This document shows, one piece after another, positions 46,228-62,475 of a DNA stretch of 64,000 bases. The translations under genes and the position numbers were made by a program. This DNA is from Ruditapes philippinarum. Taxonomy: Eukaryota. The stretch covers positions 1 through 64,000 of the forward strand of contig NW_026855987.1 in NCBI RefSeq assembly GCF_026571515.1. The letters are read 5' to 3'. Each line of letters starts with the position of its first letter. The stretch's first letter is position 1. The notes under the pieces are model-generated. The model ran no database searches and was not told the DNA's origin. It saw only the letters and a list, made by a program, of their open reading frames with translations.

Positions 46228-49200
46228 CTTGAAGAGAGTTAATAGATTTGATAAGTAAGTCTCCTGATAGATTAACTGCTATATTTTCTGTTTCGATTTA
46301 CAGCAAAGCAAAATAAAATAAATAAATACCACCCTTTTGATTATAATTAATATTAGGTAAGCAAGGCTTATTTATGTAAAATACACGACCCATCTAACCA
46401 GGGGCAGGAACTTGTTACACGACAGATGTTTTTCCAAATAATAAGTCGCGTTCCCAACCTCATCTGATGATTTTATGTTATGAGAAATGAGGGCAGGAAG
46501 TGTAAAATGGAAGTGTTACTTATTCTCAAATACCAAGTTTCAACAACATTTCATACTATTATACTGTTTGGTAACACAAGAAGGTGATTAAAAGAGTAAA
46601 TCTTTTTGCAATTTCTTAAAATTACTTTGAAAGTTTCCCGTTGAAATAAAAGAGGAAAGAAATGATAAATTTAACATAATTGTTTCAGATACAATCACCT
46701 GTGACGGTTTGTCTTTTCCCTTTTTTCTTTTTCTTTCATCTTTTCCTGTCTTGTCAATGTCTTTTTTGTTTGTTTCTGTCTTGTCAATGTCTTTTTTGGT
46801 TGTCATTTTATCTGCAAAATTTATCTCATACAATAATTAGTGTCACAGTTCCAATTCCTTTTTTTATATAAAAACTTAAACAAATTATTTCTATGTGTCT
46901 ATATTTCCGGAGTGTTTTTGTACGCCGATTTGAATACTTTTTGTCATATCTCCGTAGTCCGTCAACATAACGGCTTTCCTGAATAAGTTTCCAGTACTTG
47001 CCAATGTCTCCACAAGTGACTGACTATTGATCTGACATGGTGATGAGAAAGAACCAAACGATCATAAGAGTAATGTCACAGATCTATAACTGTAGAGAAA
47101 TTACGCCCCGCCCGATGGTCGGACTAGCGATGTCTAGATTACTTATTCGATGCTCTCCCTATTGAGCACACATCAAGATTTTAGCCACGAGAAAGGTCAA
47201 TGATTTTACAATTAGATGATAACTTATATGAACTGCACAATTGTCTAGTAAAAAATACATATATCAAATATATGTTATTATTGGTCACATTGTGCCACAT
47301 CATTCTTGTTATTGGCTAATATATGTTGTACCTTGTGTTTGTGACAATTTGACTTTCTTCCTTTCTTCTATGACCATCTTTTTGTAGAACTCATCACATG
47401 GGTGATCCCATATACTCTCTCCAGTAACAAAGTTGAAGTAATAAATTTCGCCATCTGGATCTTTGCTGCATTATATCAAAACCATATCATGAAAATAAGT
47501 CATTGATGTTGCACATAAAAATATATTCCAGACCGTAACCATTTTCATAACAATAAACACAGCATCAGCTGAGTGATGTGATGTGATATGATAGGATGTC
47601 GCGTTATTGCATCAATTTAGCTGGGAGAGAATTTGAGTAGTCACAACATCGATCCTTTACTATTTCCATTCATAGAGCAACAATGCAATTAAATGACTTG
47701 AGGGAAAGTAACTTCTTAGAAGAACGGGTAATGGGTCGTTCAATCATGAATATTTCAAGCACTTCATTCGTCAATAACTTTGACATTCTCTTTCTTAAAA
47801 CTGTAAACTGACAACATCCGTTAAAACTTCAATTCTAAGGGACACTCATTATGTTATCATATTTCATAAAGAAACTATTGAAATAGATGTAATGTACATT
47901 GTTGGTTGGCCGTTTAGCCGTTTTAGTTCAATCACATTTGAGCCGCGTCACGACAAAACCAACATAATGCGTTTGCGACCAGCATGGATCCAGACCAGCC
48001 TGCGCATCCGCGAAGTCTGATCAGGATCCATGCCGTTCGCTATCAGTTTCTCTACTTGTAATAGTGTTTGTAAGCGAACAGCCTGAATCATGATCAAACT
48101 GCGCGGATGCTCAGGCTAGACTGGTTCCATGCTAGTCGCAAACACATTACGTTGGTTTTGTCGTGACACGGCTCATTTAATCCAGGTAAGCATTTTATAG
48201 AAAAATATTTTGATACAAAAAACAGACCATTTGATATCATTTGATATGTAAATACAATTTATTTCATAAAATACTACTGAAATATTTTGAATTTTCAAGA
48301 TGTAATGCTTGTTTGACTTTATAATTACATGTAAGTATTAATATAGAAAAATATTTTGATTAAAGAAACATACCACGATTTCCAATGTTCAGGAAGTGGA
48401 GCCTTAGCACCTTCTCTGGCAATCCAGAGCAAATGTGGTTCCTTGTCAGGGTCTATACCAATTAAATTGGCATACTCACAAATATCATCCTCGGTATGAA
48501 CATCAAAAGCTTCCTCAAGGATCAGCTGGTCGTTTATCATCATCTTGAAGAGAGTAAATAGATTTATTATAAGTGAGTCTCCTGATAGATTGAACTGCCA
48601 TATTTTCTATATTGATTTACAGCATAGCAAAATTGAATAAATAAATATCACCCTTTTGATAATTAACAATAGATAAGCAAGGCATATTTATGAAAAATCC
48701 ACGACACCACTAACCAGGGGCAGGATCTTGTTACACGACGGATGTTTTCCAAATAATAAGTCGCGTCTCCAACCATATCTGATGATTTTATGTAATAAGA
48801 AATGAAGGCAGGAGGTGTAAAATGGAATTGTCCTGATTGATGTTGTTGCCTGCATTGTTCAATGCGTTAGAAAAAAAGCGTTGTCAAATTTCTCGATTTC
48901 GTAGAAATATAAGTTATAAGGTATTTTAACGTCTTTATTATCTGCGTATTGTCATCTACTCATATTCAAAGGTTCTTTAGGCTTTCTTGTATACTATTTT
49001 ATAATTAGTTCTTCCGAACTCTACCTTTTCTTGCCTTACGTTTTAATTTCTATTATTGCAACAATATGAATCATCAGTTATTTATTGTCATCTGTTCGTA
49101 GCTCTTATTCTCAAATACATAGTTTCAACAACATTTCATAATATTATACGGTTTGGTAACACAAGAAGCTTAAGGTGATTAAATGGAGGATATTTGTTTG

Positions 49201-61131: not shown

Positions 61132-62475
61132 TTACTTGTCCTTTTTCTCTACATGTTTATCTGTTCTTGCTTTTTCTGGCTTGTCTTCCCCTTTTGCCAT
61201 TGCACCTAAAATAATATCTTTATTAGCGTAGGCAGTATGCATGTCAAGAATTGTATTTTCATAGTCACATAAGCTAATAGCTATCTGAACTGCACAAAAT
61301 GTTATAAAGTAAATGGTTAATTTATATCAAAGCAAATGGCTTTCACATTCATGCTAATCTAGACCTTCGAGGTCATATGATGCCATTGCAGCAGTTTTAA
61401 TGGTGAACGGAAGGATGGATAGCTTAATGGTAGTGAATTAATTTCAGAAAGGAGCGTGCGTTTTGATAGATACAACAATCTTAAACACAAAAAACTTATG
61501 AGTTATATACAACACCTTCTGTTTGTTTCCTTTCCTCTATGACCATCTTTTTATAGAACTCATCACATAGGTGATCCCAAGTACTCTCTCCAGAAGCAAA
61601 GTTGAAGTAGTAAATATCGCCACCTGGATCTTGGCTGCATTGTAACAAAACCATATCATGAAAATAAGTTATTGATGTTGCACATAAAAAATATATTCCA
61701 GACCGTTACCATTTTTATTTCTTTAAAGAATGAATGGTAGGATATGAATTACTTTTTGTCGCTTAATCGCATGGATACTAGGTTACACCAATTTAGCTGG
61801 GAGAGAAATTGAGTTATCACAACATTGATCCTTTACTATTTCCGTTCAAAGAGCAACAATGCAATTCATTGACTTGAAGGAAAGTAACTTCTCAGAAGAA
61901 CAGATATATCGTTCAATCATGTATAATTCAAGCACTTTATTCGTCAATAACTCTGACATTCTCTTTCTCAAAAATGTAAACTTATAACATCCTGTATAAC
62001 TTCAATTCTAAGAGACACTCATTATGTTATAATATTTCATAAAGAAACTATTGAAATAGATGTAATACATGTAATATACATTGTTGGCAGTTTGGCCGTT
62101 TTACTTCAATCACATTAAATCCAGGTAAGTATTTTATAGAAAAATATTTTGATACAAAAACATACCATTTGATATCATTTGATGTTAATATTGAAATATT
62201 TTGAATTTTCAAGATGTATTGTTTATTGTTAGCCGTTTGACTTCAATCACATGTAAGTAATAATATAGAAAATATATTTTGATTAAAAAAACATACCAAG
62301 GCTTCCAATTTTCAGGAAGTTTAGCATTGACACCTTCTCTGGCAATCCAGAGCAAATGTGGTTCCTGGCCAGGGTCTATACCAATACATTCGGCATACTC
62401 ACAAATTTCGTGCTCGGTAGGAACATAGTTTTCATCATAATCCTCCTCAAGGATCAGCTGGTCGTTTATCATCAT
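61132..62475 (-). CDS. CEP164: CEP164-like N-terminal/WW module E (exons 62475-62297, 61634-61516, 61205-61132); probably the terminal module of a second paralog or a stand-alone mini-gene
   Basis: [123 protein letters not shown]. Confidence 0.85.

What the first reader, a model, noticed from the sequence alone, without database searches (positions are those of the whole stretch)
46699..62475. Every indel among the module exons preserves frame, while the introns are full of TE insertions
Exon-1 coding lengths are 170/170/170/176/179, exon-2 lengths 134x4/119, and linker exons 113/77/83. All differences are multiples of 3, including a 30-nt duplication ([10 protein letters not shown]) in B and a 9-nt deletion in A, B and C. 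No premature stops occur inside the modules. The introns, by contrast, took at least five transposon insertions. This suggests selection for a translated product rather than a pseudogene array.
Basis: seen in the sequence. Interest (0 to 1): 0.7.

Follow-up and report, generated by a model that had tools for sequence, protein, structure and literature searches.

The report
Spliced tandem CEP164 N-terminal domain array
In a clam, the first three coding exons of the cilia gene CEP164 have been copied in tandem, with one module seen spliced in frame to the next in RNA-like data, into genes predicted to encode short proteins of two and four kinase-binding domains that likely act as a decoy, although the amino acids of the newest copies drift as if unselected.

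Summary
The modules are copies of CEP164 coding exons 1-3 (N-terminal helical bundle plus WW domain, the TTBK2-binding part). An intact 1372-aa parent lies on another contig. The array holds six modules in two tandem genes: D-C-B-A (526-aa ORF) and F-E (about 253 aa; F lies beyond the window). The exon lengths, the 30-nt duplication, the 9-nt deletion and the absence of internal stops are confirmed. RNA-like contigs of two studies show GT-AG splicing from a linker exon to the next module's ATG; a DNA run does not. 'Every indel keeps frame' is overstated: the two terminal exons differ by 4 nt, a 134-nt exon is duplicated in F, and one RNA contig lacks 13 nt. The transposon argument is weak (P about 0.28). 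Best reading: a likely translated, truncated multi-domain paralog whose frame is kept while single modules decay. Similar tandem architectures exist in protists and a cichlid gene model.

The parts
62297..62475 (-). E1: copy of CEP164 coding exon 1 (179 nt); module E is the second module of the upstream gene F-E
61516..61634 (-). E2: exon 2, WW domain (119 nt; 15-nt in-frame deletion; human-equivalent P87 changed to L)
61120..61205 (-). E3: terminal-type exon 3 (86 nt) with in-frame TAA that ends gene F-E
   Evidence: E-type exon 2 to exon 3 joint in X6 (table 5c)
54812..54987 (-). D1: first coding exon of gene D-C-B-A (176 nt)
   Evidence: its expression was not tested (outside both laid stretches)
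54456..54589 (-). D2: WW exon that has lost human-equivalent F77 (S) and W84 (L)
53764..53846 (-). D3: lysine-rich linker exon (83 nt), derived from parent exon 3, ends in phase 0
51876..52045 (-). C1 (170 nt, 9-nt deletion)
51067..51200 (-). C2, WW exon (134 nt)
50471..50547 (-). C3, linker exon (77 nt)
   Evidence: exon-2 letters as loose end at 50549 in X1
48374..48543 (-). B1 (170 nt)
   Evidence: joint 47463|48374 in X1
47332..47465 (-). B2, WW exon (134 nt)
46699..46811 (-). B3, linker exon (113 nt, 30-nt tandem duplication)
   Evidence: joint 46227|46699 with CT..AC ends in X2, loose ends in X1 and X6
46058..46227 (-). A1 (170 nt); acceptor lies directly before the ATG
43116..43249 (-). 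A2, WW exon (134 nt)
42629..42718 (-). A3, terminal-type exon 3 (90 nt; 4 nt longer than E3; TAA 4 nt before the donor)
   Evidence: joint 42716|43114 in X1 and X6
41981..42027 (-). alternative 47-nt non-coding mini-exon after the stop
   Evidence: joints 42026|42628 in X1, X2, X6 and 41606|41981 in X2, X6
41340..41605 (-). non-coding 3' exon, no match to the parent; lower end not determined (41340 is the edge of the laid stretch)
   Evidence: joint 41604|42628 in X1 and X2
47935..48179 (.). MITE with terminal inverted repeats in the B1-B2 intron
   Evidence: very high depth
49200..50355 (.). about 1.2-kb repeated insertion in the C3-B1 intron (ends approximate)
52160..53136 (.). about 1-kb insertion with a 145-bp tandem core in the D3-C1 intron
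43657..45975 (.). 2.3-kb element with terminal inverted repeats in the A1-A2 intron
   Evidence: about tenfold depth in the DNA run X15
60321..60529 (.). MITE in the intron after E3
62558..64000 (.). window part of a 3.2-kb inverted-repeat element (to contig position 65742) in the F3-E1 intron; module F lies beyond it at G000:C4474:66430-67849

Best explanation
The array is a pair of tandem, spliced genes made of copies of CEP164 exons 1-3, likely translated into short proteins of two and four N-terminal domains that are predicted to bind the clam's TTBK kinase as a multivalent decoy without the centriole anchor. Shown: origin from CEP164 exons 1-3 with the parent's intron positions; phase-0 symmetry of the three-exon unit; a splice from linker exon to the next ATG; ORFs of 526 and about 253 codons that end in exon 3, followed by new non-coding exons. 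Inferred history: DNA-level partial duplication, doubling of the module with a shifted donor and an acceptor before the ATG, duplication of the two-module gene, then unequal crossovers that added the chimeric modules C and B. Inferred selection: a frameshift would remove every downstream module while a missense change spoils only one, so the frame is kept while single modules (D above all) decay. Inferred, untested function: competition with full-length CEP164 for TTBK, damping or timing cilium or flagellum assembly in the cells that express it.
For: Exon 1 matches human CEP164 NTD structures (7nwj, 7o3b; E 2e-21); exon 2 matches Pfam WW in 5 of 5 copies scanned, 4 above the curated cut-off. 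Only residues 1-105 of the parent match contig C4474, while the full parent maps to C11606. Splice joints with CT..AC ends at 46227|46699 (X2), 42716|43114 (X1, X6), 42628 to two 3' exons (X1, X2, X6), none in the DNA run X15; linker-to-exon-1 loose ends in X1 and X6, so two studies. Four of four internal indels in frame (P 7e-4 to 0.012); no frameshift where 4-13 are expected on array branches at 0.05-0.146 indels per substitution; no stop among about 106 substitutions, P 0.008. Older branches dN/dS 0.36; deep exon-1 pairs 0.37 and 0.27, P 0.007 and 0.002. I8, Q11, Y73, F75, F77 and W84 equivalents kept in 5 of 6 modules (residues from PMC8752127). The same paper states that overexpressed CEP164 N-terminal region is dominant-negative for ciliogenesis and gives a single-domain KD of about 60 uM.
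Against: Recent branches dN/dS 1.5 (0.72-3.2), whole array 0.67 (0.41-1.03). Changes do not avoid invariant sites (24 of 60, P 0.22), and sparing of key sites is not significant (3-4 of 60, P 0.06-0.14). A, B and C lost three residues in a stretch invariant among 72 homolog NTDs. One X1 contig carries a 13-nt loss that would stop after 19-22 codons. Unspliced linker-intron contigs (depth 35.5 in X1, 33.5 in X2) stand beside the spliced form (49.9 in X2); retention gives a stop after 36 codons. Raw-read runs X21 and X23 (4-6 in 100 of each read) show 0-5 reads over exons, no more than over introns. The linker joint rests on a short side (28 letters in X2; loose ends of 10-18 letters). No array protein appeared in two protein searches.
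Confidence: 0.5

Rival explanations
1. A once-constrained truncated duplicate that is now a transcribed relic: selection acted on the early one- or two-module gene, was lost around the recent expansions, and too little time has passed for the reference haplotype to break.
For: Recent dN/dS not below 1 and exon divergence about equal to intron divergence; module D lost F77 and W84 equivalents and 10 of its 15 private changes hit invariant sites; 13-nt-shorter transcript, intron retention; frame-breaking exon-2 duplication in F; P of no stop on recent branches alone is 0.08-0.17.
Against: P of no frameshift on recent branches is 0.001-0.10 by the assumed indel rate, although the linkers are A-rich; the 30-nt and 6-nt linker indels are in frame; all splice sites checked are intact and used.
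Confidence: 0.33
2. The modules are under diversifying selection: the WW pockets are being retuned for new proline-rich partners, or in a conflict, and the protein works as a multi-ligand scaffold, not a TTBK decoy.
For: Exon 2 of Fa, Fb, C, B, A: 14 non-synonymous and 0 synonymous changes, P 0.03; B vs C 9 and 0; pooled recent ratio 1.7.
Against: The subset was picked after seeing the data; pooled test P 0.17; the pocket residues themselves are mostly unchanged; gene conversion among exon-2 copies distorts the counts (p-distance tables).
Confidence: 0.12
3. Each module is a separate small gene or an assembly artefact, and the long ORF is only a by-product of phase symmetry.
For: The parent's three-exon unit is phase-symmetric by itself, so an open chain needs no selection at birth; B and C are 97-98% alike in parts.
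Against: Linker-to-ATG splice seen in RNA-like runs; B-side and C-side intron pieces both occur in the independent run X1 (records 5 and 8); the 3' regions of the two genes are only 77-84% alike.
Confidence: 0.05

Closest known systems
CEP164 N-terminal domain (PDB 7nwj, 7o3b; PMC8752127, passages read)
   Same: Same domain, 75-89% identical to the clam parent NTD, same intron positions as the parent, binding residues mostly kept.
   Different: Repeated 2 and 4 times; all of CEP164 after about residue 130 is missing; dN/dS far above the parent stem's 0.06.
Predicted proteins with tandem CEP164-NTD copies: Pelmatolapia mariae XP_063349196.1 (3 copies), Apiculatamorpha spiralis (3), Cyanophora paradoxa (5), Euglena longa (2); partial repeat in Potamilus streckersoni CHS0354_036596
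   Same: Same multi-copy architecture; 20 of the best 150 hits have two or more full copies (Potamilus).
   Different: The cichlid copies are 95-99% identical, so very young, whereas the clam modules are 68-92% identical; the named others are protist proteins with copies 36-74% identical; all are gene models and none had a paper in my searches.
Truncated paralogs from partial gene duplication (SRGAP2C, NOTCH2NL, ARHGAP11B); seen only as search listings and abstract starts, their mode of action is recalled
   Same: 5' part of a gene copied with its introns, new 3' end, interaction domain kept without the rest.
   Different: Here the kept domain is multiplied within one ORF, and no antagonism has been tested.

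Membership tests
CEP164 (full-length) | N-terminal helical bundle with inserted WW domain | tested here: met
CEP164 (full-length) | Long C-terminal region (coiled coils, centriole targeting) | tested here: not met
   tblastn of the 1372-aa parent against the whole 83.7-kb contig hits residues 1-105 only; ORFs stop in exon 3
CEP164 (full-length) | TTBK2-contact residues I8, Q11, V13, Y73, F75, F77, W84 | tested here: met
   kept (V13 as I or V) in F, E, C, B, A; D has F77S and W84L (residue list; numbering offset inferred)
CEP164 (full-length) | Binding to TTBK | not tested
   no complex job sent; the clam TTBK motif was not looked up
Pseudogene array | Stops or frameshifts inside the coding chain | tested here: not met
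   none in the 526-codon chain of this assembly; but a 13-nt-shorter form in one RNA contig and a duplicated exon in F
Pseudogene array | dN/dS near 1 and exon divergence equal to intron divergence | tested here: inconclusive
   met on recent branches (1.5, 0.72-3.2), not on older ones (0.36, 0.20-0.60)
Processed retrocopy | Loss of introns | tested here: not met
   exon boundaries 179/134/77 as in the parent
Dominant-negative truncated paralog (SRGAP2C type) | Interaction domain kept, rest lost, transcribed and spliced | tested here: met
Dominant-negative truncated paralog (SRGAP2C type) | Protein made and antagonises the parent | not testable with these tools
   needs proteomics and cell assays

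The most novel reading that the evidence does not exclude
A natural, lineage-specific multivalent TTBK sponge built from CEP164's kinase-binding domain, still gaining modules and under diversifying selection, that tunes cilium or sperm-flagellum assembly in a clam; tandem copies of this domain in protists, a cichlid and a mussel would then mark a repeatedly invented regulator of ciliogenesis.
Probability: 0.15. Interest if true: 0.75.

Novelty: new variant of a known kind. Interest (0 to 1): 0.47.

Why it matters
CEP164-TTBK2 recruitment is an early switch of ciliogenesis, and the isolated N-terminal region is reported to block it when overexpressed (PMC8752127). A natural gene made only of that domain, several times over, would be a built-in inhibitor or avidity scaffold. 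It is also a clean case of how a phase-symmetric three-exon unit turns a partial duplicate into a repeat protein, and of selection on the reading frame coming apart from selection on amino acids. If it is a decaying relic, it is an ordinary young duplicate.

Tried and rejected
Transposon-in-intron argument: rejected, P 0.28 for 5 of 5. Read-through from E into D: rejected, E3 has a stop and splices to its own 3' exon. Retrocopy: rejected. Further copies in this assembly: the protein search found 7 exon-1 matches and the DNA search 9 matches, all on C4474 or C11606 (lower bounds). No holder on record as RNA was listed; X1, X2, X5, X6 are guessed RNA, and I rely on their GT-AG joints against the DNA run X15. 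One search was swamped by the MITE (644 joints not shown), so the C3-B1 joint could not be read; X5 gave only low, mostly intronic cover. In one search, 16 joints and 59 indel rows were not shown, so other null alleles, also in X15, cannot be excluded or counted. Protein searches with E1 and B1 (lengths 105-2000 and 99-2000) returned no array-encoded protein; of 120 proteins fetched none had two NTD hits at the cut-off used, though the Potamilus one has a partial repeat. Literature: CEP164 + Ruditapes philippinarum gave 0 papers; two broader searches listed nothing on duplicated CEP164 NTDs in the 20 and 15 listings seen; only open-licence papers are searched, no supplements were read. Earlier scan findings: none. 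Branch-wise dN/dS rests on pairwise distances fitted to one tree; exon 1 and exon 2 have different histories, so the branch values are rough. No structure or complex prediction was run, because a whole module spans two exons.

Full report
What the modules are. On the minus strand the region holds repeated three-exon units. Exon 1 matches the human CEP164 N-terminal domain in PDB (7nwj, 7o3b; E about 2e-21). Exon 2 carries the WW domain (Pfam PF00397 in 5 of 5 copies scanned; D2 below the cut-off). A genome search found 7 exon-1 matches: five in the window, one just beyond it and one on contig C11606. The C11606 copy is the intact parent: P0001, labelled CEP164-like of Ruditapes philippinarum by its source, maps there from residue 1 to 1372, while only residues 1-105 match the array's contig. 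Parent exons 1-3 are 179, 134 and 77 nt, so the unit starts and ends in phase 0. Parent and array introns no longer align, and dS to the parent is 0.55-0.98 by pair and method.

Anatomy. There are six modules in two tandem genes. Gene F-E: F1, two copies of exon 2, linker F3 (G000:C4474:66430-67849), a 3.2-kb inverted-repeat element, then E1-E3 with a TAA in E3; about 253 codons with either exon-2 copy. Gene D-C-B-A: 526 codons with no internal stop, ending in A3. The two genes share 5' and 3' flanks at 67-84% identity. Linker and terminal exons both derive from parent exon 3. B and C are chimeras: exon 1 is A-like (p 0.06-0.07 to A, 0.24 to D) while intron 2 and linker are D-like (p 0.06), as unequal crossover would give (inference).

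The observation. All quoted lengths, the 30-nt duplication, the 9-nt deletion and the open chain are right. Four independent internal indels (9, 15, 6, 30 nt) are in frame, against 17 of 103 non-independent intron indels; P 7e-4, or 0.012 at one third. Six intronic insertions are present in or beside the given span, but five of five landing in introns has P 0.28.

Transcripts. No holder was on record as RNA. Laid contigs of X1, X2 (study P1) and X6 (P3) show joints at exact splice sites that the DNA run X15 lacks: B3 to A1 at the ATG (X2, depth 49.9, shorter side 28 letters; loose ends of 10-18 letters in X1 and X6), A2 to A3, exon 1 to exon 2, and A3 to two non-coding 3' exons. E-type and F-type joints appear in X6. 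The stop lies 4 nt before the last joint of the main form and 51 nt before it with the mini-exon, so the main form would likely escape decay if the exon at 41605 is the last. Against: unspliced linker introns at depth 33-36, one X1 contig with a 13-nt loss that stops within 19-22 codons, and raw-read runs X21 and X23 with 0-5 reads over exons in the 4-6 in 100 that were read.

Selection. Least-squares branch values: parent stem 0.06, older array branches 0.36 (0.20-0.60), recent branches 1.5 (0.72-3.2), whole array 0.67 (0.41-1.03). Tree-free counts agree: deep exon-1 pairs 0.27-0.51, recent pooled 39.5 non-synonymous and 7.5 synonymous, ratio 1.7, P 0.17. Exon divergence is about equal to intron divergence in close pairs. 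Of 60 distinct changes from the parent, 24 hit the 47 sites at least 95% conserved in 72 homolog NTDs (P 0.22; some lie beside the 9-nt gap). Yet no stop arose in about 106 substitutions (P 0.008) and no internal frameshift where 4-13 are expected. TTBK2-contact residues named in PMC8752127 (passages) are kept in five modules; D has F77S and W84L, E has P87L.

Mechanism. The pattern fits a repeat protein in which the frame must stay open to reach downstream modules while each module is dispensable (inference). The paper reports that the isolated N-terminal region is dominant-negative for cilia, probably by competing for TTBK2, and that one domain binds weakly, about 60 uM, so several domains in one chain would likely bind more tightly (inference). 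I put a translated, frame-selected product with this decoy role at 0.5, a transcribed relic at 0.33, diversifying selection at 0.12 and separate genes or artefact at 0.05. Translation and binding are untested.

Novelty. The architecture is not unique: 20 of the best 150 profile hits have two or more full NTD copies, among them a cichlid gene model with three copies 95-99% alike and several protist proteins, and a mussel model has a partial repeat. Searches found no paper on CEP164 in this clam or on duplicated NTDs. It is not a CEP164 by membership (C-terminal region absent) and is best filed as a new variant of truncated paralogs from partial duplication.

Noticed in passing
G000:C4474:67044-67432 (L008): Tandem duplicate of exon 2 in module F, 121 nt apart; flank 97% identical to module A's intron, so a recent exchange between the two genes; needs mutually exclusive splicing to keep frame.
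   Followed up: partly
window 42629-42649, table 5c: X1 and X2 carry a third form of the terminal exon 3, unlike A3 and E3, that seems to end in a different stop; an allele or a copy missing from this assembly.
   Followed up: no
window 46228-46275, 48544-48594, 52046-52096: An upstream AG 48-51 nt before the ATG of A1, B1 and C1 would also give an open in-frame extension; in E the same stretch holds a stop.
   Followed up: no
window 21650-22354 (-): ORF matching Pfam DOR family (TP53INP-like), E 7e-28.
   Followed up: partly
window 9844-10857 (+): 337-codon frame with two hydrophobic stretches and a proline-rich tail; no Pfam match.
   Followed up: partly
P0002 / P0020: Potamilus streckersoni has a 278-aa CEP164 model with a partial internal repeat and L at the Q11 position, with a locus tag next to the full-length gene.
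   Followed up: partly
P0121: Cichlid protein named 'NEDD4-like' by its source is three tandem CEP164 N-terminal domains.
   Followed up: partly
G000:C4474:78384-81440 and 82805-83721 (L009): Nested inverted-repeat cluster and a tandem repeat that runs to the contig end.
   Followed up: no
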